The translations under genes were made by a program, and so were the position numbers. From NCBI GenBank assembly GCA_964641265.1, contig CAZXKS010000001.1, forward strand, positions 12,793 through 66,639: a stretch of 53,847 bases of DNA, in the 5' to 3' direction. This stretch comes from an uncultured Methanosarcinales archaeon. GTDB lineage: Archaea > Nanobdellota > Nanobdellia > Woesearchaeales > ARS49. This document shows, one piece after another, positions 24,922-51,266 of the stretch. The notes under the pieces are model-generated. The model was not told the DNA's origin and searched no databases. It worked only from the letters and a program-made list of their open reading frames with translations. Numbering within the stretch: the first letter of the stretch is position 1; each line of letters begins with the position of its first letter.

Positions 24922-25684
24922 GTTTTATCTTGCTAGCATTGTGTTTTTGGCTAGCTTGATTGCCGTCTCTGCTGGCGAGTTTCCTGACGAGGACAAGGAC
25001 GGTATTTGTGAAACTCCGTTCTGTGACAGGCTTGACTTGTGTCCTAAGACTGCTTGTGAGCTTTTGGACATTCCTGTTGAGAATTGTCAGAACCCTGATA
25101 ATACTGATACTGACGGTGATGGCGCTGCAGATGTTTGTGATGAGTGCCCTACTGATCCTACGCGTGTTCAGGAGCCTTGCCCTCCGCCTAGAAGAGGCCC
25201 GGGCGGCGGTAGTGGTGGTGCTGGTGTAGAAACCGGTTGCCGTTCATTTACTGACTTTAGTCCGCAATTCCACCAGCGTGTTGGCTGGCTTTGCACTCAT
25301 GATAAGGAGTGTGTGACTCTTGCTTCGAAGTTTGGCAGGTCTGATCCTGAGAATTATGCTTGTGTGATTGTTGGTAGACAGCAGGGTGCTGGTGCTGTTA
25401 TGAATAATTGTGAGTGCTCGTATAGAAAGCCTCCGTCTTCAGCTCCTCAGTCCTCAATACCTACTGAGATTGTTCAGATGGAGCTTAGAGGCCAGACTCC
25501 GCCTCAGGCACCTCCTCAGCAGTTTGCTCCGAGTGCGCCTGTGCAGAGTCCGTATGTTGGTCGTGCTTTTGAGCAGCCTTCACCTGGCAGTCCTGGTTGG
25601 TTGCCTTTTGCGTTGGCTGGTATTCTTGTTGTCGGCGGCGTGGCTTTGTACTTGGTATTGCGTAGTCGCATACGCCCCCAATAA
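24914..25684 (+). CDS. Secreted Cys-rich protein with a thrombospondin type-3-like Ca repeat and a C-terminal TM anchor
   Basis: In-frame ATG at 24914 (MNKFYLASIVFLASLIAVSAG signal) overlaps the upstream stop by 8 nt. NPDNTDTDGDGAADVCDECPTDP motif, a Gly-rich linker, and C-terminal PGWLPFALAGILVVGGVALYLVLRSRIRPQ (sorting-signal-like). Confidence 0.6.
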   Translation: MNKFYLASIVFLASLIAVSAGEFPDEDKDGICETPFCDRLDLCPKTACELLDIPVENCQNPDNTDTDGDGAADVCDECPTDPTRVQEPCPPPRRGPGGGSGGAGVETGCRSFTDFSPQFHQRVGWLCTHDKECVTLASKFGRSDPENYACVIVGRQQGAGAVMNNCECSYRKPPSSAPQSSIPTEIVQMELRGQTPPQAPPQQFAPSAPVQSPYVGRAFEQPSPGSPGWLPFALAGILVVGGVALYLVLRSRIRPQ

Positions 25685-25716
25685 ATTATTAAACAATTTC
25701 TTTTTATTTTGGTTTT

Positions 25717-26820
25717 ATGTGGGCTAAATGGGTGTTTTTGTTAATCTTGCTTATTGCTTGTCAGAATGCTGATATTTTGACTGGCGATGTTGTGCTTGAG
25801 ATGGAGGGTTCTTCTGATTCATCATCCGAACTTCTTTTTGTTGAACAGGAAGACGTGAAGGATGAGCGTTTAGAGTTTGCCAAAAAGCTTGGTCGTGCTG
25901 GCAAGGACAAGCGTTCTCTTTATGAAGAGTATGTTGATGTTATTGGCGCTAACGGCATTCTTGATGGTATAAAGGAATTGTGGCCTAATTGTCATTCTGA
26001 AGCGCATGATATTGGAAAGGTGATTTTTGCAAGGCTTGGCGATGTTGGCCAGAGTTTGCGTGTTTGCGCTGATAGTTGTCATACTGGTTGCATGCATGGC
26101 GTGCTCATGGAGGCTTTGTCTGGTGTGAATGCATCAGACGCTGAAGGCCATATTGATCCTGAGGCTCTTAAACCGTTCATGGATGAGATTTGTCTTAAGA
26201 ATGAGCAGATGGTTTCTGATTATTTGCCTGGCGAGTGTTCTCATGGTGTTGGCCATGCGCTTGCTTTTTTGTCAGGTTATGATATTTCTGAGGCCATCGG
26301 TGGTTGTAATGAGTTCAATAACTCTGGGATGAAATATTATTGTGCTAGTGGTGTTTACATGGAGTATGTTGCAGTGCGCGATAAAGAGGATAAAAAAACC
26401 AGGAGTTTGTTTTACCCTTGTGATACGTATGATTATCCTGCTGCTTGTGCTTGGCATAAGGTTCCTTATGTTTCCTCGAGGCTTTACAAGGCAGGTAAAA
26501 AGCTTCCTGAGATTGTTCAGGAGTGTGAAAAGCTTGATGGTAAGTTCAGGCTTGGTTGTTTTCACGGCTTGGGCAATGCGCATGCTGGTTTGATTACTCG
26601 TGGCAAGCTTGATATTAAGGATCTTTGTCTTCATGGAAGTGAGGCTGAACAGGTTCTATGTATCGAGGGTTCTGTTGAGCGTATGGCAAGGTATTATGAA
26701 AATAAGACTAGGGAGGTATGTGAGAAGCAGTTGGATGGCAAGCATGAAGAAATCTGCCTTACTGCTGTCAAAAACAAGATGAATAATATTAACAAGAATT
26801 TGACTCTTTATCTTGAGTAA
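25717..26820 (+). CDS. Secreted/lipoprotein-like Cys/His-repeat protein of unknown function
   Basis: 367 aa with signal MWAKWVFLLILLIACQ. Seven to eight ~33-aa helical repeats each start with a Cys-containing motif (CHSEAHDIG, CMHGV, CSHGVGHA, CASGVYME, CFHGLGNAHAG, CIEGSVE). Confidence 0.55.
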   Translation: MWAKWVFLLILLIACQNADILTGDVVLEMEGSSDSSSELLFVEQEDVKDERLEFAKKLGRAGKDKRSLYEEYVDVIGANGILDGIKELWPNCHSEAHDIGKVIFARLGDVGQSLRVCADSCHTGCMHGVLMEALSGVNASDAEGHIDPEALKPFMDEICLKNEQMVSDYLPGECSHGVGHALAFLSGYDISEAIGGCNEFNNSGMKYYCASGVYMEYVAVRDKEDKKTRSLFYPCDTYDYPAACAWHKVPYVSSRLYKAGKKLPEIVQECEKLDGKFRLGCFHGLGNAHAGLITRGKLDIKDLCLHGSEAEQVLCIEGSVERMARYYENKTREVCEKQLDGKHEEICLTAVKNKMNNINKNLTLYLE

Positions 26821-42877: not shown

Positions 42878-42881
42878 GAAT

Positions 42882-43196
42882 ATGTTGTTTTGTCCGAAAT
42901 GTAAAAGCATTATGATGCCGAAGGCTGTTGGTGGCAAGAAGCAGTTTGTTTGCAGTTGTGGTTACAAGCAGGCTGCTGAGAGTGTGACGATTACTGAGAC
43001 TACTAAAGAGAAGCCAAAGGAATTTGTTGTTATTGAGAAAGAGCCTACTGCCAATATCATCATTGATGCTGACTGCCCTAAATGTGGTCCTGTGAAAGCA
43101 GAGTATTGGGAGATTCAAACAAGAGCTGCTGATGAACCAGCTACGAGATTTCATAAGTGCTCAAAGTGTGGTCATACTTGGCGCGAATATAAGTAG
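42882..43196 (+). CDS. tfs: Transcription factor S (TFS/RpoM-like)
   Basis: 104 aa from ATG 42882. N-terminal Zn ribbon CPKC...CSC; C-terminal CPKCG...QTRAADEPATRFHKCSKCGHTW. Confidence 0.9.
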   Translation: MLFCPKCKSIMMPKAVGGKKQFVCSCGYKQAAESVTITETTKEKPKEFVVIEKEPTANIIIDADCPKCGPVKAEYWEIQTRAADEPATRFHKCSKCGHTWREYK

Positions 43197-43442
43197 ATGG
43201 AAGGCTTCCCTTTAACAGGCCGCGTGAAGATTCTTGTCAAGCCTAATTCTAAGAAAACTGAAGTTCTTGGCTGGGATGAGGAAAGGAAAGCTTTTCGGGT
43301 TGCTGTCGCCGCTCCTGCTGAGGATAATAAGGCGAATATTGCATTAGTGAAGTTCTTGTCTAAACTGTCAAAAAAGCGTGTGAGGATTGTTTCTGGTTTG
43401 TCTTCTCGTGAAAAGATTGTTGAATTCTATTTAATCGGGTAA
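43197..43442 (+). CDS. DUF167/YggU-family protein
   Basis: 81 aa. ILVKPNSKKTEVLGWDE...FRVAVAAPAEDNKAN..LVKFLSK matches the family pattern. Confidence 0.75.
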   Translation: MEGFPLTGRVKILVKPNSKKTEVLGWDEERKAFRVAVAAPAEDNKANIALVKFLSKLSKKRVRIVSGLSSREKIVEFYLIG

Positions 43443-44395
43443 TAATTAAGCGATTTGTGGAATTTATAATAGATAAGAGGCTCAAAATCTTTGAGCACGT
43501 CGATAAATTGTGATTTGATCGCATCAATAAATTCATAGAATTCGTTAACATCATTTACTAAAATACGACACTCGAGTTCGCAAAAGCCTATTGTTTTAGT
43601 GATGCTAATAACTTGTGGTTGTAGTGAGAGAAACTTGCGGAACGCCTCTTGGCGGGCAGGAATGTTTTCCAAGAAGAGGAAAACACGGTAGTGAAGCTTT
43701 TTAAGTTTCTCGTGGTTAATCATAACTCTATATCCAAGAATAATACCGTTCTTCTCAAGTTCTTTGATTCTATGCTTGATTGCATTCGCCGTAAGACCGA
43801 TTTTTTTTGATATTTCTGTCAATGGTGTTCTGGCTTGTTCTGCAAGAATCTTGAGAATTTTATCATCAGTTCCATCGAGTAGTCCGGTTTCGAGCGGTCC
43901 TGACATCCGAATTTCGGCCAATTCTGTTGGCTGAGAGATAAGAAATTTTGGTTTGTAATACCAGAAGTCAGTCACAATTGTGATTAATTTTTCCTTTACG
44001 TATTTCTCGAAGTCCTTCATAAGATCCTCATAGATCGCTTTAAATTCATACACGTCCTTTGCAAAAATTGCGATTGAATGGTCCCATTTGCCATGCACTG
44101 ATGCATTCACGCTTACGCGTTTGTGTTTGTTGAGGTGTTGAATGAACTGTTTTTCTTCATCCACGCCTAAATGTTGAAACTTAAAATAGAAGAGATAAAT
44201 TATTAGTCCAAGTTTTGAGGGGTTTATGTCAGTATAAAATCCCTGTATGACGTCTTCCTTCTGTAAGCGTTCAAGACGGTAAAGCAACGCCTGCTTTGAA
44301 ATTCGAAGTTTGCGGGCTAGTTTTGCCAACGGTTGGCGGGCGTTAAAGTCCAGCCCATAGATGAGTTTCTTGTCAATTTCCGTGATTTTGTTCAT
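43427..44395 (-). CDS. Tandem (double) Lrp/AsnC-family transcriptional regulator
   Basis: 322 aa. Two HTH_AsnC-like N-domains (DKKLIYGLDFNARQPLAKLARKLRISKQALLYRLERL and DDKILKILAEQARTPLTEISKKIGLTANAIKHRIKEL), each followed by an effector-type domain. The 3' end overlaps the convergent DUF167 gene by 16 nt. Confidence 0.75.
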   Translation of the reverse strand: MNKITEIDKKLIYGLDFNARQPLAKLARKLRISKQALLYRLERLQKEDVIQGFYTDINPSKLGLIIYLFYFKFQHLGVDEEKQFIQHLNKHKRVSVNASVHGKWDHSIAIFAKDVYEFKAIYEDLMKDFEKYVKEKLITIVTDFWYYKPKFLISQPTELAEIRMSGPLETGLLDGTDDKILKILAEQARTPLTEISKKIGLTANAIKHRIKELEKNGIILGYRVMINHEKLKKLHYRVFLFLENIPARQEAFRKFLSLQPQVISITKTIGFCELECRILVNDVNEFYEFIDAIKSQFIDVLKDFEPLIYYKFHKSLNYYPIK

Positions 44396-44491
44396 ATTTC
44401 TTTACTTTATTAACTTCTAAGCTTTAAATTTTGCGTTTTGTTAAAGAGATATAAGGAAAAGTTTAACTTTCTTAGAATTCACTATTGTTTC

Positions 44492-45166
44492 ATGGTAATT
44501 AGAACTCCACGAACTGAGGAGCTTGAAGTGCTCTATTCATTGATTAAGCCAGAACCGCACCACGTTGTACTGGATGCCCTTGCTGGATCTGGGTTTGCTT
44601 CTGGGCCTCTTATAGGAAAAGTTGCCAGCATTACAGCGGTTGATGTAGATCAGAGACCTGAAGAGCTGCCAAGTCATATTTCCTACGCTAGAAACAATAT
44701 CAAAGATTTGGGCCTTAAAGATAATAGTTTTGACGTAGTTTTAGCACATACAGGATTTCACCACGTTGGTGATGGAGATTCTAAACTGCAAGAGAAAGCA
44801 TTGCGAGAGCTATATAGAGTCTTGAAACCAGCAGGTACAATTGTTATTTCTGATCTGCAAGGCGAATCTTCTGCCTCAGAATTTAATGATAAATGTGTAA
44901 AAAATCATGGAAACAAATGCCAGTGGCTTACTACGGGAAAGATAAAGGAAGCGTTAGAAAAAATCGGATTTAAAGATGTTGTTTCAAGAAAAAAGGATGT
45001 TTCTTGGAACTTTTCTACTTATGAAGATATGAACGCCTTTACTGCCAAGATATTCAAAATTCCGGAGAATAAAATTTTATCACAACTTCAATTATATAAT
45101 CTTCTTATGCCCAATGAACTAATTGTAAAATTACCCTTCTGGTATGCCAAGGGTGTGAAAAAATGA
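44492..45166 (+). CDS. Class I SAM-dependent methyltransferase
   Basis: ATG at 44492 within ORF 44438..45166. VLDALAGSGF (motif I), ITAVDV, LKPAGTIVISD. Confidence 0.75.
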   Translation: MVIRTPRTEELEVLYSLIKPEPHHVVLDALAGSGFASGPLIGKVASITAVDVDQRPEELPSHISYARNNIKDLGLKDNSFDVVLAHTGFHHVGDGDSKLQEKALRELYRVLKPAGTIVISDLQGESSASEFNDKCVKNHGNKCQWLTTGKIKEALEKIGFKDVVSRKKDVSWNFSTYEDMNAFTAKIFKIPENKILSQLQLYNLLMPNELIVKLPFWYAKGVKK

Positions 45167-46224
45167 AACGAGAACCACTTTCTAGACTAACAGTCATGGT
45201 TACAGATGATTGTAATTTGGGGTGTGTAGGATGTGTTACTAACGCCCAATTTGGTCGTTTAGGAAAACGCATTATAGACAAGGATTTCGCTCTTGAAGCA
45301 ATAAAAATGTTCTATAGTCCAGCACGCTTTGAAAAGCCCTATCTCTTCTTTTCAGGGAGAGGAGAACCGACGTTACGAATTGATATTATTGAAGCAATTG
45401 TTAGCGAAGCAAGCAATTTTCTTGATGATCCATATATAGGAATTCAAACAAATGGAGTTTTTGATGTAAAAACAAGGCAAAGAATAAATGAGATTTCCGA
45501 TCTTGTCTGGATGTCAGTGGACGGTAGACCAGAAATTAATGATGGCTTAAGGCCAATGCGTAAAGGAAACGCCTCAGAATATTTAGCTGAGAATATTCCG
45601 GCTCTTATGGCATCCGGTACACCAGTGCGCTGGCGTTCAACTATTTATCCAAGAAATTGCAGTGCAGTAGAGCAAAAATCACTAGTTGATTATGCAAAAC
45701 AATGTGGTATTGATATAGTCGTTTGTGAACCAGCAATCATTTCTCCGTCAAGAACTAATACTGGTGACGACATATATCTTGTCAGCATTTCCAAATTTAT
45801 TGAAGGATTTATTGAAGCCAATCAATATGCTGCATCAATAGGGATCACTTATATCACTGGTTTGATGGAAGAAGCACAGAAATTGCACGATATTGGCACT
45901 AGAAAGAGGTGCAGCGAATGTTTTGCAATAGATCCTCTTACAGCATTACCAAAAAGCGCAACATTAACAACCGATAATCGTATGGTAGGTTGCTATCTTG
46001 GTTATGAAGATAATGATACAATGGAAGTACTTACATTCGGAAGATGGAAAAATGGCAGATTAGTAATTGATCGAGAAAGGTTGCGAGAACTTGGGCAAGC
46101 AGATAAAAATAATAATTGTTGTTTTGGCAGATCTCTTTTGGGAAATAGTAGAATAGAAGCATCACTTTTAGAAAAAGTTAGGAAAGAAACAAAATATCCA
46201 GTAGAATTACCTTACCATTCCTAA
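45163..46224 (+). CDS. Radical SAM enzyme with a Cys-rich C-terminal (SPASM/twitch-like) extension
   Basis: 353 aa. CNLGCVGC is CxxxCxxC. GGEP-like SGRGEPT. C-terminal CSEC ... C ... CC cluster. ATGA overlap with the methyltransferase. Confidence 0.75.
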   Translation: MKREPLSRLTVMVTDDCNLGCVGCVTNAQFGRLGKRIIDKDFALEAIKMFYSPARFEKPYLFFSGRGEPTLRIDIIEAIVSEASNFLDDPYIGIQTNGVFDVKTRQRINEISDLVWMSVDGRPEINDGLRPMRKGNASEYLAENIPALMASGTPVRWRSTIYPRNCSAVEQKSLVDYAKQCGIDIVVCEPAIISPSRTNTGDDIYLVSISKFIEGFIEANQYAASIGITYITGLMEEAQKLHDIGTRKRCSECFAIDPLTALPKSATLTTDNRMVGCYLGYEDNDTMEVLTFGRWKNGRLVIDRERLRELGQADKNNNCCFGRSLLGNSRIEASLLEKVRKETKYPVELPYHS

Positions 46225-46234
46225 TACACTAAAA

Positions 46235-46564
46235 ATGCCCACAAAAGCTTTTACTTCAATAACCTTAGAAAATTATCATAATGAAGAACTTGCAGAAGAA
46301 ATAGTTAATTATCTTAAAAAAAAGAAAATTAAACAAGTCAAGATAAAGATTACTGAAGAATTAAGAGAAACTCTTGAAAAAAATTATACCACGGATAAAT
46401 TTGATAAATTGAAAGATGAAATACAAAGGTGGCTTGAAGCTGACGGTTTTCATTTTTACTTGAGTATTCCTAAGATTAAAACTACTTTTGAAAAATTTGC
46501 GTATGGGGTAGAAGCGAATTCATACGAAAAAGACTTTAAAGAGACATTCTCAAAATATGAATAA
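46235..46564 (+). CDS. Small K/E-rich hypothetical protein
   Basis: 109 aa, starting 10 nt after the radical SAM gene. No recognizable motif. Confidence 0.45.
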   Translation: MPTKAFTSITLENYHNEELAEEIVNYLKKKKIKQVKIKITEELRETLEKNYTTDKFDKLKDEIQRWLEADGFHFYLSIPKIKTTFEKFAYGVEANSYEKDFKETFSKYE

Positions 46565-46621
46565 GCCAAACTAAGTGCTCACCGTCTCAATCATCAACTA
46601 TCCGCCCCAATATTTAAACCA

Positions 46622-46657
46622 TCCGTAAACCTTCCGGATTTTCCGTAAACTTTCCGG
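46622..46657. repeat. Two 16-nt direct repeats with 20-nt period followed by a T-tract
   Basis: TCCGTAAACCTTCCGG (46622-46637) and TCCGTAAACTTTCCGG (46642-46657), one mismatch, then TTTTTT. Confidence 0.8.
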
Positions 46658-46703
46658 TTTTTTCGTCGATACGCATATTAAGGAGTAAAAAATATACTTT
46701 TTC

Positions 46704-46949
46704 ATGTCTTACGTTCACTTGTTCATTGTTAAGGATGATTGTGTGTATTCTGTGACTGTTCATTATAGGACTGCGATGAAGCTTTTGGAAAAGGGCGTGG
46801 ATAGTATTTTGCCTTTGTTGAAGTCTCGTTTTCTTGATGCTGGCTATCTTGTGTTGGACTTGAACAAGCGTACTATTGTTAATGGCCAGGGTGCTTTTCA
46901 TGTTGGCAGTGTTTTAGGAAAGAAGGATTTGTGTGTGATTGAAGCATAA
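46704..46949 (+). CDS. Hypothetical small protein
   Basis: 81-aa ORF with the window-typical T/G-ending codon usage. No motif recognized. Confidence 0.4.
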   Translation: MSYVHLFIVKDDCVYSVTVHYRTAMKLLEKGVDSILPLLKSRFLDAGYLVLDLNKRTIVNGQGAFHVGSVLGKKDLCVIEA

Positions 46950-46988
46950 GCTTTTTAAAGTCATAATCTTTTCTACTTGTTGAAAAAG

Positions 46989-47498
46989 ATGGTGAAGAAG
47001 ACTATTGTCGCGGTATTGGCGATTGTATTGTTGTCTATTGTTTTTGTTGGCGCTGCTCAGCGTTGGGGCTATACCCGGTATGGCGCTGTTTACTCTTATG
47101 GCACTCCTTATTATTCCTATTATCCTCTTTATCAGTATCCGTTTTATGGGGGCTATTATTCATATTATCGATCTCCATATTACACTTATCCGTACTATTA
47201 CAGCCCGTTAGCTTCAGATTATGTTTATAGGTATGGTGCGCCTTCAACTGCGTATCCATCTCCGACTGCTGGGTACGGCGCTCCTTCAACCGCGTATCCA
47301 TCTCCTGTTTCTGGTGAATTGCCGCGTGGTGGGGAAGGCCAGTTGTGTGGCATGATTGATAGCCAGCAGTATGGTTGCGAGTATGGCTTGGTGTGTGATT
47401 ACAAGCAGGGTGGTGTTGGTGTTTGCGCCCGCCAGTCTGGTGGTGTTACTTACACGAGTCCGCCTACAGCTGCTTATCCGTATTATTATTATGGCTAG
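46989..47498 (+). CDS. Secreted Tyr/Pro-rich low-complexity protein with a small Cys-containing module
   Basis: ATG 46989 (MVKKTIVAVLAIVLLSIVFVGAA signal/anchor). YGTPYYSYYPLYQYPFYGGYYSYYRSPYYTYPYYYSP, duplicated GAPSTAYPSP, four-Cys segment CGMIDSQQYGCEYGLVCDYKQGGVGVC, terminal AAYPYYYYG. TATA TTTTTAAAG about 30 nt upstream. Confidence 0.6.
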   Translation: MVKKTIVAVLAIVLLSIVFVGAAQRWGYTRYGAVYSYGTPYYSYYPLYQYPFYGGYYSYYRSPYYTYPYYYSPLASDYVYRYGAPSTAYPSPTAGYGAPSTAYPSPVSGELPRGGEGQLCGMIDSQQYGCEYGLVCDYKQGGVGVCARQSGGVTYTSPPTAAYPYYYYG

Positions 47499-48097
47499 AT
47501 GTTGCTAAGCTTTGGGATTTCTTGCGTTAGGTGTGCTTCTAGTGCGTTTGCGTCAGTTGTGTGATAGGGGCTTCCTGTTCTTAGCCAGATGTCTCTGCCT
47601 GCGTATTCGATTCCTAATGGCACAAATGGGACTCCTAGTTGGGCTCTAATTATTTTTTCAAGAAGGGAGTTTGGCTTTATGCGTATTTGGCCCATTTGTT
47701 TATTGTGTCTTGTTCCTTCCGGGTGTATGACAATTGTTTCTCCTTTTTTTAGCTGGCTTATTGCTTTTTCTGTTGTTGCTTCGTTTATTGCTTGTGCTTG
47801 TTCTTTGGTGATTTTTCCTTTTTTAAGGTCTTTTGGCCTTGCCACGAGTATGCCGCCATAAAGATGCAGGATTTCATTTAGTGGGAATGGAAATCCTCTC
47901 ATTATGTAGTAGGGTTGTTTTCCTGTTGTTCTGTAAACAAGGTTGCCCTCAAGCAGAATGTCAATCATTTTTTGGTGTTTTGGCAGTAGAACAAATGGTC
48001 CTTTTGGCAGGCTGCCTTCGTGGTGCACTTTATAACGAGTGTTGAAGTAAATGTTGACTAGGATTTCGCTTGCTCTGAACACCCAGTATGATCTCAT
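47495..48097 (-). CDS. PlsC-like lysophospholipid/glycerol-phosphate acyltransferase
   Basis: 200 aa from the ATG at 48097, internal to track ORF 47495..48817 (the upstream 240 aa of that ORF is R/K/N junk overlapping nucS). HQKMID is an HX4D motif and PEGTRH an EGTR motif. ATGA overlap with the nucS stop. Confidence 0.7.
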   Translation of the reverse strand: MRSYWVFRASEILVNIYFNTRYKVHHEGSLPKGPFVLLPKHQKMIDILLEGNLVYRTTGKQPYYIMRGFPFPLNEILHLYGGILVARPKDLKKGKITKEQAQAINEATTEKAISQLKKGETIVIHPEGTRHNKQMGQIRIKPNSLLEKIIRAQLGVPFVPLGIEYAGRDIWLRTGSPYHTTDANALEAHLTQEIPKLSNI

Positions 48098-48834
48098 GCA
48101 AATCCGTCTAGTTTTGCTTGTTTTTTGTCGTATTCTTCTAGGTATTTTGGCGGTTTTATGCTTACAAATTGGAATCCCCAGTCTTTTAGCATTTTCTCCG
48201 CATTTTGTGTTATTTTTGGTGCTGCTAGTATTCCTCTGACTTTTGTTATTCCTTTGCTCACCATTATTTTTTCTACGTATCTGCGTAGTTGTGTTACGGC
48301 TGATAGTTCTGCTCTGTATCTTTTGCATTCTATTATTGTTAAAATGCCGTTTTTGTCCACGCCCATAACGTCGATGAATCCGTATTTTGTTTGTTCTTCT
48401 TGGCTTACTGGTTTGAATCCTTCTTCTATTAGTTCTGGGTTGTTGTATATCATGTTGCTCATGTCGTCTTCTGTGCCGCTTACGCGGATAACTTGTCCGT
48501 CTTCTAATTTTTCGCTGTTGAAGAAGTGGATTTTTTGTATTGATATTTCCATTTTTTCTTTTTGTAGTAAATTTTGGCTTTTTAGTATTAGTCCTTCGTT
48601 CTCTACTCTTAATGAATGGCCGCTTTTTGGCTTCATGTAGTTTATTGGCGCGTTTCCTGTTGGCTGGTGTACTAATAGGGCGTTGTCGCTTTTTATCATT
48701 ATTATTCTGTCTCCCCAGTCTAGGAAGCTTTCTGCTCTGCCAGAATATCTTATTCTGCATTTGCATGAGAATACTATTGTTTCGTTGCGTGCTAGTGCGT
48801 CGTTCAATAGCGTGCAATAGTCTTCTGGTTTCAT
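48094..48834 (-). CDS. nucS: Endonuclease NucS/EndoMS
   Basis: 246 aa. N-terminal half-barrel region and C-terminal RecB-like nuclease motifs GFIDVMGVD ... IIECKR. Confidence 0.85.
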   Translation of the reverse strand: MKPEDYCTLLNDALARNETIVFSCKCRIRYSGRAESFLDWGDRIIMIKSDNALLVHQPTGNAPINYMKPKSGHSLRVENEGLILKSQNLLQKEKMEISIQKIHFFNSEKLEDGQVIRVSGTEDDMSNMIYNNPELIEEGFKPVSQEEQTKYGFIDVMGVDKNGILTIIECKRYRAELSAVTQLRRYVEKIMVSKGITKVRGILAAPKITQNAEKMLKDWGFQFVSIKPPKYLEEYDKKQAKLDGFA

Positions 48835-48856: not shown

Positions 48857-49918
48857 TTACATTTTGGCGTAGCGTTCGAGTTCGTCTTGGATGACTTCAA
48901 GTTGTACGCCTGCTTGTTTGAACCAATCTCTGGTGAGTTGTGAGCGGTGGTATCTTTTAAGGCAGACGACGCGTTTGATTCCTGCGTTTATTATTGTCTG
49001 GGCGCATACATAACAGGGTTCCATTTTGCAATATATGGTCGCGCCGAGGACAGACACGCCGTGTCTTGCTGCTTGGGCTATGGCGTTTGTTTCAGCGTGT
49101 GTTGTTCGTATGCAGTGTTGGCTTTCTGTTCCGTCTGTGTTGTGCACTTTGTGCATTAAATGTCCTGCTTCGTCACAGTGTGACAGTCCGACTGGCGCAC
49201 CAACATATCCTGTTGATATTATTCGTTTGTCTTTCACTACTACACACCCACTTTTTCCCCTATCGCAGGTCGCTCTTTTTCCAACTTCTTGTGCAAGATG
49301 TATAAAGTATTCATCCCAGCCTGGTCTTTTTTTGTCTAGTTTTGATTTCCATTGCGTTATTAGCTTGTCTACTTTATTTTTTAGTTCTTCAAGTGCGCCG
49401 TCGTTGTTTATTGTTATGTCTGCCATGCTTATTACTGTGTTGACTTGTTGTTTGGCAGGGTCTGTGCTTTCTGCTTCTTGTGCTTCTTTTTGTTTGAATT
49501 CTTCAAAGGTTTCTAGCTCGTCGCCTCGCTTTGATGTTGTTCGTCTGGCTTCCATTCGTTGCCATCTTATTTTTTGTGAGGTTGTTACGTTGATGAGTGC
49601 AAAGTTTGGTTTTGTTCTTAGTACTTCTACTTCTGTTGGGTTTCGTATGCTGGTTACAACATAGCTTTTGTCCCATTCTATTTTTTGTAATGCCAGGCGT
49701 GCCAGAATTCCGTTTCCGTGTTTTCGTCTTAGCTCGTTGCCAAGATTGATGAGGTTTTCTCTTGTGTCTTTTATGCCTCTTTTTTTGGCTTCTTCTCTGA
49801 TGAAGTCTGATAGTGAGATGTGTTGGAATCCTTTTTCTTTCAGTATTTCTCCTATTGTGTCTTTGCCTGATGCTAAATGTCCTGTTACCCCCAGTATCAT
49901 AATGTGCTTGAACTGCAA
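48857..49918 (-). CDS. Fusion protein: N-terminal P-loop nucleotide-kinase-like domain plus C-terminal CMP/dCMP-type zinc deaminase
   Basis: 353 aa. P-loop GVTGHLASGKDT. Deaminase HAETNAI (HAE) and PCYVCAQ (PCxxC). TATA ATTATAAATA upstream. Confidence 0.8.
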   Translation of the reverse strand: MQFKHIMILGVTGHLASGKDTIGEILKEKGFQHISLSDFIREEAKKRGIKDTRENLINLGNELRRKHGNGILARLALQKIEWDKSYVVTSIRNPTEVEVLRTKPNFALINVTTSQKIRWQRMEARRTTSKRGDELETFEEFKQKEAQEAESTDPAKQQVNTVISMADITINNDGALEELKNKVDKLITQWKSKLDKKRPGWDEYFIHLAQEVGKRATCDRGKSGCVVVKDKRIISTGYVGAPVGLSHCDEAGHLMHKVHNTDGTESQHCIRTTHAETNAIAQAARHGVSVLGATIYCKMEPCYVCAQTIINAGIKRVVCLKRYHRSQLTRDWFKQAGVQLEVIQDELERYAKM

Positions 49919-50927: not shown

Positions 50928-51266
50928 ATGTTTTTATTCTCGCGCAGATTTGGCCAAGTAATGGATATCGACCTCTTCGACAATGAAGTGCAGTTTCTTG
51001 AGGACTTAGCAAGTGATTTGGCGGATACTCTTGCAGTTATAGCCTTTGCAGGCCATGCCGATAATGTAGACTACATCAGAAGCATACAGGAACATTTACG
51101 GAAAACGTACGAGTCTAGACTGCCTGATTGTATAACTATGACGAGCTGCATAAAAGTGCAACCTGTTTATGATACGATTATGGATTTGATAAGCATGAAC
51201 CCAGAGGAGCGTCGCCAAGCTGCTGAAGAAGCATTTTACCGCCTGATAAGCGCAGAAGACACATAA
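50928..51266 (+). CDS. Hypothetical acidic protein
   Basis: 112-aa ORF (alternative start MDIDLF at 50961). Codon usage is mixed rather than T/G-ending. Confidence 0.4.
   Translation: MFLFSRRFGQVMDIDLFDNEVQFLEDLASDLADTLAVIAFAGHADNVDYIRSIQEHLRKTYESRLPDCITMTSCIKVQPVYDTIMDLISMNPEERRQAAEEAFYRLISAEDT

What the first reader, a model, noticed from the sequence alone, without database searches (positions are those of the whole stretch)
43427..46660. Compositionally foreign cassette: tandem Lrp/AsnC regulator, SAM methyltransferase, radical SAM (Cys-rich C-terminus) and a small K/E-rich protein
Every other gene in the window obeys an orientation-dependent codon rule (third positions T/G on the plus strand, A/C on the minus strand). 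These four genes do not. The plus-strand methyltransferase, rSAM and 109-aa genes use many A-ending codons (ATA, GAA, AAA, GGA, ACA), and the minus-strand regulator uses mixed endings. The block also looks more AT-rich by eye. The regulator 3' end intrudes 16 nt into the native DUF167 gene. The right edge carries two 16-nt direct repeats (TCCGTAAAC[C/T]TTCCGG, 46622-46657). The methyltransferase and rSAM genes overlap (ATGA) and the small ORF follows after 10 nt. This is the architecture of a self-contained, regulated modification module for peptide, RNA or small-molecule substrates. No substrate is obvious; the Tyr-rich secreted protein 0.4 kb downstream is one speculative candidate.
Basis: partly seen in the sequence, partly recalled or inferred. 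Interest (0 to 1): 0.65.

Follow-up and report, generated by a model that had tools for sequence, protein, structure and literature searches.

The report
Acquired regulator–methyltransferase–radical SAM cassette
A 3.2-kb block of foreign genes (a double Lrp/AsnC regulator, a methyltransferase, a rare radical SAM enzyme and an orphan small protein) was inserted into the end of a housekeeping gene of a small archaeon; what it makes is unknown, but its regulator and promoter also turn up in other archaea in front of quite different genes.

Summary
The four genes at 43427-46564 lack the strand-dependent third-position skew of the other 52 genes (T3-A3 about 0 against 0.51 ± 0.22; Mann-Whitney p = 1.5e-4) and are more AT-rich.

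Comparative data show an insertion. In about a dozen syntenic relatives, DUF167 and the 81-aa gene lie 65-115 nt apart, with no cassette between them. The insert (about 43427-46617) replaced the last codons of DUF167. The original "CCG TAA" stop now sits at 46623-46628.

The two direct repeats at the right edge are therefore native sequence, not cassette ends.

The conserved unit is the regulator, methyltransferase and radical SAM enzyme. It occurs in every locus recovered for this radical SAM family (10 clusters among 5.8 billion proteins), each time in a different neighbourhood. The 109-aa protein is an orphan, and the Tyr-rich protein is native.

The radical SAM enzyme derives from the SPASM group but has lost the second auxiliary-cluster motif. 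The methyltransferase resembles small-molecule methyltransferases.

The regulator family (at least 89 clusters, some named Woesearchaeota or Nanoarchaeota) shares a bidirectional control region that fronts unrelated cargo genes elsewhere.

The biochemical function is unknown. My best guess is a ligand-regulated, two-enzyme tailoring pathway for a small metabolite.

The parts
43197..43442 (+). Native DUF167 (YggU-like) gene with a chimeric 3' end. The last roughly 5 codons and the stop (…FYLIG*) are supplied by the insert.
   Evidence: Pfam PF02594, 70.8 bits. Relatives end 4-5 residues after the conserved (E/T)K(I/L), usually in Pro-stop, whereas the window runs on for 7 residues.
43420..43434 (.). 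Left insertion junction, located to about ±8 nt. It contains the left copy of the 7-nt TATTTAA (43428-43434).
   Evidence: The regulator C-terminus SLNYYPIK* is conserved in homologues, so at least 43427 onward belongs to the insert. Similarity of DUF167 to relatives ends here.
43427..44395 (-). Tandem (covalently doubled) Lrp/AsnC-type transcription regulator, 322 aa.
   Evidence: Two HTH_AsnC-type hits (69 bits). Each half aligns to a full-length archaeal Lrp/AsnC regulator structure (PH1519, LrpA, ST1022). It is conserved at 46-67% identity in all cassette loci.
44396..44491 (.). Bidirectional control region. It holds a TATA-like box for the regulator (TTTAAAT, 44425-44431 on the + strand), the conserved core TTGCGTTTTGTTAAA (44431-44445), and a TTTAAC box about 30 nt upstream of the methyltransferase ATG.
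   Evidence: Alignment of 12 divergent intergenic regions, five of them from loci whose cargo is not the methyltransferase-radical SAM pair, shows an invariant or near-invariant core. The core has a single exact match in the window.
44492..45166 (+). Class I SAM-dependent methyltransferase, 224 aa. The mechanical ORF from TTG 44438 is probably too long.
   Evidence: Pfam Methyltransf_11, 54 bits. Homologues and the gene call in L032 start at this Met. The AF2 model (pLDDT 88) matches small-molecule methyltransferases such as JHAMT, BioC, PfPMT and RebM.
45163..46224 (+). Radical SAM enzyme, 353 aa. It has CX3CX2C at C17/C21/C24 and four conserved C-terminal Cys (C250, C253, C277, C320). It is a SPASM-derived, twitch-like enzyme and is translationally coupled to the methyltransferase through an ATGA overlap.
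46235..46564 (+). Orphan 109-aa K/E-rich ORF with GC 0.28. It lies inside the insert but is not part of the conserved trio.
   Evidence: No family hit. No homologue in other cassette loci or in viral contigs. Its 90% cluster has one member.
46565..46621 (.). Non-coding 3' end of the insert and the right junction (about 46604-46621). It includes the right copy of TATTTAA (46611-46617).
   Evidence: Collinearity with the empty sites of relatives begins at about 46620.
46622..46661 (+). Native sequence. It holds the orphaned original DUF167 end (CCG TAA at 46623-46628) inside the first of two TCCGTAAAC(C/T)TTCCGG(A/T)TTT units.
   Evidence: In L042, L058, L047 and L075 the DUF167 stop codon is the TAA of this motif. 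L042 also carries two copies without any cassette.
46662..46949 (+). Native promoter region (TCGATACGCATATTAAGGAG) and native 81-aa gene (46704-46949). This is the right flank of the insertion site.
   Evidence: Conserved, and directly adjacent to DUF167, in about a dozen relatives. T3-A3 skew is 0.79, like native genes.

Best explanation
A block of about 3.2 kb (about 43427-46617) was acquired horizontally by an archaeon with a strongly strand-skewed genome. The host is probably a DPANN-type archaeon.

**Insertion (shown).** The block inserted into the last codons of DUF167, at an intergenic spot that is variable across the lineage. It carries no integrase or transposase. The route was most likely illegitimate or microhomology-mediated recombination (inferred); TATTTAA occurs at both junctions.

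**Regulatory part (anatomy shown, function inferred).** The block encodes a covalently doubled Lrp/AsnC regulator transcribed divergently from a conserved bidirectional control region. I infer that the regulator binds the conserved core between the two TATA-like boxes, represses itself, and gates the cargo promoter in response to a small ligand sensed by its two RAM domains.

**Cargo (anatomy shown, chemistry inferred).** The cargo operon encodes a small-molecule-type class I methyltransferase, translationally coupled to a radical SAM enzyme. That enzyme descends from SPASM enzymes but keeps only one auxiliary [4Fe-4S] site. I infer that the two enzymes act in sequence on one low-molecular-weight substrate, such as an amino-acid-like or carboxylate-bearing metabolite or a short peptide end. 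The radical SAM enzyme would abstract a hydrogen atom and oxidise or cross-link the substrate, using the auxiliary cluster as an electron conduit. The methyltransferase would then cap the product.

**Orphan ORF (shown).** The 109-aa ORF is a lineage-specific passenger.
For: **Insertion.**
- Composition marks the block as an outlier.
- The host skew is shared by the closest relatives, so it is a property of the lineage.
- In L041, L042, L047, L048, L051, L052, L054, L055, L058, L059, L061 and L075, DUF167 and the 81-aa gene are adjacent and no cassette genes are present.
- The window's right flank is collinear with these empty sites, and the stranded CCG TAA matches the DUF167 stop of relatives.
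- Other relatives carry unrelated inserts at the same spot.

**Unit.**
- The regulator, methyltransferase and radical SAM enzyme are syntenic in every locus recovered for the radical SAM family, each in a different neighbourhood: PolD plus an IS4 transposase, GAPDH and RNase HII, inositol phosphatase and rhodanese, and others.
- Identities of the three proteins to the window change together from locus to locus.

**Regulator.**
- Both halves match DNA-binding archaeal Lrp/AsnC regulators, and no siroheme decarboxylase structure is retrieved.
- The control region is conserved.

**Radical SAM enzyme.**
- CX3CX2C and four C-terminal Cys are conserved.
- Relative to its nearest full-SPASM relatives, the family has lost the CX2CX5C segment.
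- The closest folds are CteB, anSME, viperin, BlsE, SkfB and DesII.

**Methyltransferase.** All nearest folds are small-molecule or peptide-terminus methyltransferases.

**No precursor.** The ORFs downstream of the radical SAM gene are unrelated between loci, and L030 has none.
Against: - No substrate, transporter or further pathway gene is conserved next to the trio, so the small-metabolite assignment rests only on the fold neighbours of the methyltransferase and the lack of a precursor gene.
- SPASM and twitch enzymes closest in sequence (PapB, SCIFF maturase, anSME, QhpD) act on peptides or proteins.
- The AF2 models rest on shallow alignments of 10 and 5 sequences. For the methyltransferase only one of five models was confident.
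- The junctions are mapped only to about ±10 nt.
- The 7-nt TATTTAA repeat could be chance. Its left copy encodes the conserved end of the regulator.
- The host taxon was not determined directly.
- Closely related regulators carry other cargo (83% identity between L006 and L081). The regulator's ligand therefore need not be related to the chemistry of the cargo.
Confidence: 0.55

Rival explanations
1. RiPP module. The radical SAM enzyme and methyltransferase mature a ribosomal peptide or protein encoded nearby: the 109-aa K/E-rich protein or the Tyr-rich secreted protein.
For: The best sequence models are ranthipeptide, SCIFF and other peptide maturases. The best fold matches are CteB and anSME. 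One fold neighbour of the methyltransferase is the RiPP C-terminal methyltransferase LahSB. The 109-aa ORF is co-oriented, 10 nt downstream.
Against: - All maturase models score far below their cut-offs (PapB 48.9 bits against 340).
- There is no RRE/PqqD-like domain: CX3CX2C starts at residue 17.
- The 109-aa ORF has no homologue in any other cassette locus, and downstream ORFs differ everywhere or are absent.
- The Tyr-rich gene is native. It occurs in relatives without the cassette and is absent from other cassette hosts.
Confidence: 0.12
2. Accessory or defence cargo under a portable sensor-regulator. The tandem Lrp regulator with its promoter is a platform that controls diverse accessory, possibly antiviral, genes. 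The methyltransferase-radical SAM pair would then make a modified nucleotide or toxic metabolite.
For: - The same regulator family and control region front unrelated cargo, including a Cas4-like PD-(D/E)XK nuclease.
- Regulators of L006 and L081 are 83% identical yet have different cargo.
- Neighbours include toxin-like genes (PIN; a RelE-like pair), an IS element and an integrase fragment.
- Viperin is among the fold matches.
- The insertion site is a hot spot.
Against: - No PADLOC system matches. pVip is hit only over the generic core at E = 8.5e-4.
- Nothing was found on viral contigs.
- Viperins lack an auxiliary cluster.
- Most cargo proteins have no recognisable domain, so the defence flavour is circumstantial.
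Confidence: 0.13
3. Post-translational or RNA modification of a conserved host macromolecule. The radical SAM enzyme would act like anSME on a host protein, or the pair would modify tRNA or rRNA, so no dedicated substrate gene is needed.
For: anSME-like fold and sequence affinity. There is no linked precursor gene. All hosts appear to be archaea and so share a common proteome core.
Against: - The distribution is extremely sparse and patchy (10 clusters in 5.8 billion proteins) and the block was acquired recently. Both are hard to reconcile with modification of a core component.
- The methyltransferase's fold neighbours are small-molecule enzymes, not RNA or protein methyltransferases.
- Control by an Lrp/AsnC regulator suggests a metabolite-linked function.
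Confidence: 0.12
4. Tetrapyrrole-type pathway. The tandem AsnC-like protein is an AhbA/B- or NirDL-like decarboxylase rather than a regulator. It would work with a NirJ/AhbC/D-like radical SAM enzyme and a methyltransferase.
For: The architecture is analogous to nirE-nirJ-nirDL. There are weak hits to the NirDL-like HTH (27.8 bits), AhbA/B (28-31 bits), NirJ1, AhbC and AhbD. AhbA/B are known AsnC-fold enzymes (PMC4145669).
Against: - AhbA/B scores are far below the cut-offs of 125-140 bits, whereas true regulators score 70-88 bits.
- The PDB profile search retrieves only DNA-binding Lrp/AsnC proteins.
- The methyltransferase is class I, not the uroporphyrinogen-methylase fold.
- A conserved operator-like core sits in the divergent promoter, also in loci with unrelated cargo.
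Confidence: 0.03
5. Native genes with unusual codon usage, for example highly expressed genes or a recently inverted block, rather than foreign DNA.
For: A few other short ORFs in the window also have weak skew.
Against: - About a dozen syntenic relatives have empty sites.
- The genes are unskewed rather than oppositely skewed, so this is not an inversion.
- The same trio occurs in unrelated neighbourhoods and hosts.
Confidence: 0.02

Closest known systems
Local Lrp/AsnC (FFRP) regulators transcribed divergently from their target operon (for example AsnC-asnA, LysM-lysWXJK, BarR; archaeal FL11/PH1519 and LrpA structures)
   Same: Each half has an HTH_AsnC domain plus a RAM domain. The gene is divergent from its target, and a short intergenic region holds a conserved core between two TATA-like boxes.
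   Different: Two complete units are fused in one 322-aa chain. Regulators as close as 83% identity, with the same control region, sit in front of unrelated cargo genes. Neither ligand nor DNA binding was tested.
SPASM/twitch radical SAM enzymes (CteB, PapB, anSME, BtrN, SkfB)
   Same: CX3CX2C core, a C-terminal Cys-ligated auxiliary cluster domain, and no N-terminal extension (as in anSME and BtrN). CteB and anSME are the best fold and sequence matches.
   Different: All named models score far below their cut-offs. The CX2CX5C (Aux II) segment and the final Cys are deleted, leaving four Cys. The family forms an isolated clade: 573 bits for its own cluster against 163 bits or less for the next relatives. 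There is no RRE and no linked precursor.
Small-molecule class I methyltransferases (JHAMT, BioC, phosphoethanolamine N-methyltransferase, RebM/AtmM, LahSB)
   Same: Methyltransf_11 Rossmann core with a C-terminal lid. TM-scores are 0.6-0.7.
   Different: Identity is only 13-21%. The family has its own motifs (HTGFHHVG, DL.G..SAS.LND..GH...C.WLT). The substrate is unknown.
Regulators that accompany diverse cargo systems in bacteria (BrxR/CapW-type regulators of defence systems). This comparison is from my own knowledge and was not tested here.
   Same: A conserved regulator and promoter next to interchangeable cargo operons in variable genome regions.
   Different: The protein family differs (Lrp/AsnC, not wHTH-WYL), the hosts are archaea, and there is no evidence that the cargo is defensive.
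nirDL-nirJ-nirE / ahbAB-ahbC/D gene sets (heme d1 and alternative heme synthesis)
   Same: A superficially similar trio of an AsnC-fold tandem protein, a radical SAM enzyme and a SAM methyltransferase.
   Different: Scores are far below family cut-offs, the methyltransferase has a different fold class, and the protein matches true regulators much better.

Membership tests
Lrp/AsnC (FFRP) transcription regulators | N-terminal AsnC-type helix-turn-helix | tested here: met
   PF13404 scores 69.1 bits (cut-off 27) with two stretches, one per half.
Lrp/AsnC (FFRP) transcription regulators | C-terminal RAM (AsnC_trans_reg) ligand/oligomerisation domain | tested here: met
   PF01037 scores 25.1 bits (cut-off 25). 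Profile matches cover about 125 residues of full-length Lrp/AsnC regulator structures for both halves: residues 3-129 and 158-293.
Lrp/AsnC (FFRP) transcription regulators | Sequence-specific DNA binding, modulated by ligand | not testable with these tools
   Indirect only: a conserved core, TTGCGTTTTGTAAAA, lies between divergent TATA-like boxes in 12-14 loci.
Radical SAM superfamily | CX3CX2C motif and partial TIM-barrel core | tested here: met
   C17, C21 and C24 are invariant. PF04055 scores 32.5 bits (cut-off 29.5). The AF2 fold matches radical SAM structures with probability 1.0.
SPASM domain radical SAM (two auxiliary clusters; PF13186/TIGR04085) | Seven-Cys motif CX9-15GX4C…CX2CX5CX3C…C | tested here: not met
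   Only C250, C253, C277 and C320 are conserved. The CX2CX5C segment and the last Cys are deleted relative to the nearest relatives P0011-P0018. PF13186 is not hit.
Twitch-type radical SAM (one auxiliary cluster) | Truncated SPASM fold ligating a single auxiliary [4Fe-4S] cluster | tested here: inconclusive
   The Cys pattern corresponds to the Aux I ligands. Cluster content cannot be measured here.
RiPP radical SAM maturases (PapB, SCIFF/CteB, sactisynthases) | Score above the equivalog cut-off | tested here: not met
   PapB scores 48.9 against 340, SCIFF 32.3 against 425, and others lower.
RiPP radical SAM maturases (PapB, SCIFF/CteB, sactisynthases) | Conserved adjacent precursor peptide gene and/or an RRE domain | tested here: not met
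   Downstream ORFs are unrelated between loci or absent. There is no N-terminal domain before CX3CX2C.
Class I SAM methyltransferase (Methyltransf_11) | Rossmann-type SAM-binding core with motif I | tested here: met
   PF08241 scores 54.4 bits (cut-off 21.2). The LDAL.G.GFAS motif is conserved. The fold agrees.
Arsenite methyltransferase ArsM (paired with radical SAM ArsS/ArsL) | Conserved As(III)-binding cysteines and score above cut-off | tested here: not met
   There is only one invariant Cys, C143. Scores are 21-30 bits against cut-offs of 240-510.
Siroheme decarboxylase AhbA/B / NirDL | Score above the equivalog cut-off | tested here: not met
   AhbB scores 31.1 against 125 and AhbA 28.5 against 140. 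Neither appears among the PDB profile hits.
Self-mobile element (IS, transposon, integrative element) | Transposase or integrase, terminal inverted repeats, target-site duplication | tested here: not met
   The insert encodes no such protein. There are no terminal inverted repeats. TATTTAA occurs at both junctions, but its left copy is regulator coding sequence, so it is ambiguous.
Known anti-phage defence systems (PADLOC) | Match to system-specific models | tested here: not met
   Only generic domain hits: the HTH of Csa3/CasR, the methyltransferase of mad2, and pVip at E = 8.5e-4.

The most novel reading that the evidence does not exclude
The doubled Lrp/AsnC regulator and its roughly 45-nt bidirectional control region form a portable expression platform in DPANN-type archaea. 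Unrelated cargo operons are exchanged behind it. The known cargoes are the methyltransferase-radical SAM pair; an M15 peptidase with a B12-radical SAM enzyme and a GNAT (behind a 28-30% identical paralogue); a Cas4-like nuclease; and several domain-less proteins. The platform would be an archaeal counterpart of regulators that travel with diverse defence or accessory systems. The methyltransferase-radical SAM pair would then be a new effector, making a modified metabolite or nucleotide that matters in host-symbiont or virus conflict.
Probability: 0.15. Interest if true: 0.8.

Novelty: new variant of a known kind. Interest (0 to 1): 0.52.

Why it matters
- This is an unusually clean case of gene acquisition in an uncultured, small-genome archaeon. 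The host's extreme strand skew acts as a clock-like marker, the empty site is preserved in many relatives, and the displaced stop codon of the target gene is still visible.
- It defines a very rare, uncharacterised radical SAM family (a SPASM relative that lost its second auxiliary cluster). The family is always coupled to one methyltransferase family and one regulator, which gives a compact three-gene target for biochemical study.
- The same regulator and control region precede unrelated genes in other archaea. If confirmed, this points to a reusable regulatory module for accessory genes in a group whose gene regulation is almost unknown.

Tried and rejected
- **Direct repeats as att sites or cassette ends.** Rejected: the motif is native and present at empty sites.
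- **Inversion of a native block.** Rejected: the genes are unskewed, not oppositely skewed.
- **The 109-aa ORF or the Tyr-rich protein as substrate.** Rejected as unsupported.
- **ArsM/ArsS-like arsenic chemistry.** Rejected: the Cys ligands are absent.
- **Ahb/Nir tetrapyrrole pathway.** Rejected on scores and methyltransferase fold.
- **Known defence systems and phage families.** Only generic hits.
- **Virus-borne origin.** No relatives of the radical SAM enzyme, the regulator or the 109-aa ORF in viral contigs. The single 30% hit over the radical SAM core (L080) is not a family member.
- **Species-representative genomes.** Only one true family member, a 1.7-kb contig, so no taxonomic distribution could be drawn.
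- **Literature.** Searches for the assemblies and for such a cassette found nothing relevant (one search failed on syntax).
- **Host taxonomy.** Cluster look-up gave no names, and Pfam scans of large native proteins were uninformative.
- **tRNA and Rfam scans.** Nothing at the insertion site.
- **First tree script.** It timed out and was redone.

Full report
**1. What is in the window**

ORF listing and family scans give the following order:

| Coordinates | Strand | Gene |
|---|---|---|
| 42879-43196 | + | TFS-like zinc ribbon |
| 43197-43442 | + | DUF167 |
| 43427-44395 | - | 322-aa protein with two AsnC-type HTH units |
| 44438/44492-45166 | + | Class I methyltransferase |
| 45163-46224 | + | Radical SAM protein |
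| 46235-46564 | + | 109-aa K/E-rich ORF |
| 46704-46949 | + | 81-aa ORF |
| 46977-47498 | + | Tyr-rich secreted protein |
| 47495-48100 | - | Acyltransferase |
| 48094-48834 | - | NucS |
| 48857-49918 | - | dCMP-deaminase fusion |

The regulator overlaps DUF167 by 16 nt. The methyltransferase and radical SAM genes share ATGA. A 10-nt gap precedes the 109-aa ORF.

**2. Is the compositional anomaly real?**

Yes. The window has a striking strand bias at third codon positions that does not depend on gene orientation. For 52 other genes, the plus-strand-oriented T3-A3 skew averages 0.51 (sd 0.22).

Synonymous codon choice flips with orientation. Glu GAA is 45% in + genes and 86% in - genes. Ile is ATT 71% in + genes and ATA 62% in - genes. 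Gly GGT is 42% against 3%.

The four cassette genes score 0.06, 0.08, -0.03 and -0.05 (Mann-Whitney p = 1.5e-4). A run of four such neighbours has p = 0.002 by permutation. Their GC is 0.37-0.38, and 0.28 for the 109-aa ORF, against 0.436. They are unskewed rather than oppositely skewed, so a simple inversion of native genes is excluded.

The closest relatives of the host share the strong skew. Mean values are -0.37 to -0.66 in L038-L042 and L064, with mirrored sign because those loci are reverse-oriented. The skew is therefore a property of the lineage.

One claim is too strong. Six short ORFs elsewhere in the window also have weak skew, and five of them have no Pfam match.

**3. Proof of insertion: empty sites**

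A metagenome scan with NucS returned 42 related loci, with NucS 51-90% identical over the best aligned segment. Mapping the window's proteins on them shows conserved synteny:

dCMP deaminase – NucS – (acyltransferase) – (Tyr-rich) – 81-aa gene – DUF167 – TFS – signal peptidase – NMD3-like – DUF460

In L041, L042, L047, L048, L051, L052, L054, L055, L058, L059, L061 and L075, the 81-aa gene and DUF167 lie 65-115 nt apart. No relative carries the methyltransferase or the radical SAM gene. The only regulator hits are distant paralogues in L044 (26-33% identity), away from this site.

At the sequence level, DUF167 in the relatives ends in "CCG TAA", inside a motif TCCGTAAA..TTCCGG. This motif is followed by TCGATAC.CAT.TTAAGG and then the ATG of the 81-aa gene.

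The window has exactly this string at 46622-46712. The "right-edge direct repeats" are thus the native DUF167 terminus and the upstream region of the next gene. L042 also has two copies of the motif and no cassette.

In the window, DUF167 diverges from its relatives after …EKIV and runs on into the insert (…EFYLIG*). The regulator's C-terminus (SLNYYPIK*) is conserved in homologues, so it belongs to the insert.

The insert is therefore about 43427-46617, or 3.2 kb, with each junction known to about ±10 nt. A 7-nt TATTTAA occurs at both junctions (43428-43434 and 46611-46617). Joining the flanks through one copy gives an in-frame DUF167 ending in Pro-stop, as in relatives. This suggests microhomology-mediated integration, but it is not proof.

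The insert has no integrase, no transposase and no terminal inverted repeats.

The site is a hot spot. L039, L043, L073, L063 and L064 carry unrelated genes between DUF167 and the 81-aa gene, and L038 lacks DUF167.

**4. What is the conserved unit?**

The radical SAM protein has only 10 relatives (90% clusters) among 5.8 billion proteins. A profile search of 1.84 billion representatives gave one 50% cluster for the family (573 bits). The next best protein scored only 163 bits.

Every locus that could be read has the same three genes: the regulator on one strand, and the methyltransferase and radical SAM genes on the other. Each locus has a different neighbourhood:

| Locus | Neighbourhood |
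|---|---|
| L001/L002 | DNA polymerase D and an IS4-type transposase |
| L003, L031 | A second regulator-enzyme module |
| L006-L008 | Hypothetical genes |
| L029 | Inositol phosphatase and rhodanese |
| L030 | GAPDH and RNase HII |

Only these three proteins are shared with the window. Identities are 46-67% for the regulator, 32-57% for the methyltransferase and 48-70% for the radical SAM enzyme.

ORFs downstream of the radical SAM gene are unrelated to one another, and L030 has none. The 109-aa ORF has no relative in those loci or in viral contigs, and its cluster has one member.

The Tyr-rich protein is native. It is found in relatives without the cassette.

No relatives of the cassette proteins were found on viral contigs. 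Only one family member was found among species-representative genomes, a 1.7-kb contig binned as Methanosarcinales.

**5. The proteins**

*Regulator.* Both halves are complete Lrp/AsnC units. Profile matches to solved structures cover residues 3-129 and 158-293 and retrieve only DNA-binding archaeal and bacterial Lrp/AsnC proteins (PH1519, ST1022, LrpA, PH0140, AsnC, Lrp). No siroheme decarboxylase is retrieved. Scores for AhbA/B are 28-31 bits against cut-offs of 125-140.

*Radical SAM enzyme.*
- CX3CX2C (C17, C21, C24) is invariant, as are C250, C253 and C277. C320 is conserved in every full-length member.
- The best models are PapB, TIGR04084, NirJ1, the tungsten-cofactor maturase and the SCIFF maturase. 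All score far below their cut-offs.
- The AF2 model (pLDDT 80) is closest to CteB and anSME, then viperin, BlsE, SkfB, SuiB and DesII.
- The nearest outgroup proteins (P0011-P0018) carry the full SPASM motif. This family has deleted the CX2CX5C stretch and the last Cys, and keeps the positions that ligate the first auxiliary cluster in anSME-type enzymes (the ligand assignment is from established knowledge of the anSME structures).
- It is therefore a SPASM-derived, twitch-like enzyme without an RRE domain.

*Methyltransferase.*
- It is a Methyltransf_11 core with family-specific motifs and a single invariant Cys, so it is not an ArsM.
- The AF2 model (pLDDT 88, but only one of five models was confident) is nearest to small-molecule or peptide-terminus methyltransferases: JHAMT, YcgJ, BioC, phosphoethanolamine methyltransferase, RebM/AtmM, GtmA and LahSB.
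- PADLOC and PHROGs give only generic hits.

**6. The regulator is a platform with exchangeable cargo**

The regulator has at least 89 homologous clusters. Seventy-seven are full-length proteins at 44-74% identity, and some are named Nanoarchaeota or Woesearchaeota by NCBI. This is far more than the radical SAM enzyme has.

Five contexts without the radical SAM gene were read. In each, the regulator is again divergent, 91-136 nt away from a different cargo:

| Locus | Cargo |
|---|---|
| L081 | 198-aa protein |
| L083 | 286-aa protein |
| L085 | 36 + 110 + 294 aa |
| L087 | 249-aa protein |
| L088 | 98 aa plus a Cas4-like PD-(D/E)XK nuclease |

None of the L081, L083 or L085 cargo proteins resembles the methyltransferase or the radical SAM enzyme, and none has a significant Pfam match. 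The L087 and L088 cargoes were not run through these scans; their descriptions come from the precomputed Pfam annotations.

A 28-30% identical paralogue in L003 and L031 fronts an M15 peptidase, a B12-radical SAM enzyme and a GNAT. A 30% identical paralogue in a relative of the window's host (L044) fronts a 295-aa methyltransferase-like gene.

The intergenic regions align well:

TATATAAAT – (a)TTGCGTTTTGTAAAA – about 17 nt – TTTAAC/TTTAAG – TATAA

The core columns are invariant or nearly so, across all cargo types. I read the outer elements as the two TATA boxes and the middle as the operator; this is an inference. The core occurs once, exactly, in the window (44431-44445). It overlaps the TTG start at 44438, which supports ATG 44492 as the true methyltransferase start.

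In a neighbour-joining tree, regulators linked to the methyltransferase-radical SAM pair are interspersed with the others:
- L081 (198-aa cargo) is 83% identical to L006 (methyltransferase-radical SAM cargo), with 100% bootstrap support.
- L088 groups with L001 at 93% bootstrap.

Cargo has therefore been replaced behind an otherwise conserved regulator and promoter. Identities of the regulator and the radical SAM enzyme to the window change together from locus to locus. This fits an old three-gene unit whose cargo was later lost or swapped in some lineages.

**7. Interpretation**

*Shown:*
- The block is foreign, and the insertion site is mapped.
- The target gene was repaired by insert-derived codons.
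- The three-gene unit is conserved.
- The radical SAM enzyme has the SPASM-minus-Aux-II anatomy.
- The control region is conserved and fronts variable cargo.

*Inferred:*
- The regulator autoregulates and gates the cargo promoter in response to a ligand.
- The two enzymes act in sequence on a small substrate.
- The radical SAM enzyme performs a hydrogen-abstraction-initiated oxidation or cross-link and uses one auxiliary cluster for electron transfer.

The rivals cannot be excluded, but each lacks specific support. They are a RiPP module, modification of a host macromolecule, and defence cargo. Native origin and a tetrapyrrole pathway are effectively refuted.

**8. Novelty and score**

Horizontally acquired, locally regulated enzyme operons are a known kind. 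Three things are new here:
- a very rare, uncharacterised radical SAM and methyltransferase pair;
- a doubled Lrp/AsnC regulator with a conserved bidirectional control region that recurs in front of unrelated cargo in DPANN-type archaea;
- an unusually clear reconstruction of the insertion.

No function can be assigned. Interest is moderate (0.52).

Noticed in passing
window 1-53847; also L038-L042, L064: There is an extreme, orientation-independent third-position strand skew (T over A, G over C on the + strand). It is strong enough that synonymous codon choice flips with gene orientation: Glu GAA is 45% against 86%, and Gly GGT is 42% against 3%. The sign does not change over 54 kb. The closest relatives share the skew, while more distant ones (L048, L054, L075) do not.
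   Followed up: partly
L039:11521-12645, L043:12735-13509, L073:1670-2379, L063:3564-4462, L064:2712-5547, L038:11530-11610: The DUF167 / 81-aa gene junction is a hot spot across the lineage. Different relatives carry unrelated genes there: two small ORFs; a 186-aa lipoprotein-like gene; a 198-aa HAD-like gene; a 249-aa gene; three genes. One relative lacks DUF167 altogether.
   Followed up: partly
window 46622-46661 and the homologous sites in L042, L058, L047, L075, L061, L038: A conserved motif, TCCGTAAA..TTCCGG, overlaps the DUF167 stop codon and lies upstream of the promoter-like TCGATAC.CAT.TTAAGG of the 81-aa gene. It occurs in one to three copies. It may be a terminator or a transcription-factor site.
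   Followed up: partly
L003:3875-7884 and L031:3722-6883: A second module lies beside the cassette in two loci. It has a paralogous tandem Lrp/AsnC regulator (28-30% identity), divergent from an M15 peptidase, a 564-aa B12-binding radical SAM enzyme and a GNAT acetyltransferase. A small 44-aa + 100-aa gene pair, which looks like a toxin-antitoxin pair, separates the two modules.
   Followed up: partly
L081:6286-7963, L083:6019-7975, L085:5589-7975, L087:4115-5972, L088:3684-5957, L044:1494-3447: Homologous tandem Lrp/AsnC regulators with the same control-region motif face unrelated cargo genes, most with no recognisable domain and one a Cas4-like nuclease. The L081 regulator is 83% identical to that of L006, whose cargo is the methyltransferase-radical SAM pair.
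   Followed up: partly
window 24960-25229, 25410-25727, 50928-51266: These short ORFs have weak or no strand skew and no Pfam match. The first two also have unusually high GC (0.50-0.53). They could be other foreign genes, spurious ORFs over non-coding RNA, or genes under different selection. Rfam found nothing there at gathering thresholds.
   Followed up: partly
window 47230-47313 (within the Tyr-rich gene 46977-47498): A 42-nt tandem duplication (81% identity) encodes GYGAPSTAYPSP(T/V). The Tyr-rich gene is native and is itself duplicated in L043 and L073.
   Followed up: no
window 47495-48817 (-): The 440-aa mechanical ORF is an artefact of low stop-codon frequency on this strand. The real genes are the acyltransferase (47495-48100) and NucS (48094-48834, another frame), as also called in L032.
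   Followed up: yes
L001:9025-10029 and L029:5701-5985: In L001 an IS4-family (DDE_Tnp_1) transposase lies 0.7 kb downstream of the cassette, and the cassette's GC3 (0.46-0.54) is below that of the flanking PolD genes (0.62-0.64). In L029 the 94-aa ORF after the radical SAM gene looks like a C-terminal fragment of a methyltransferase.
   Followed up: no
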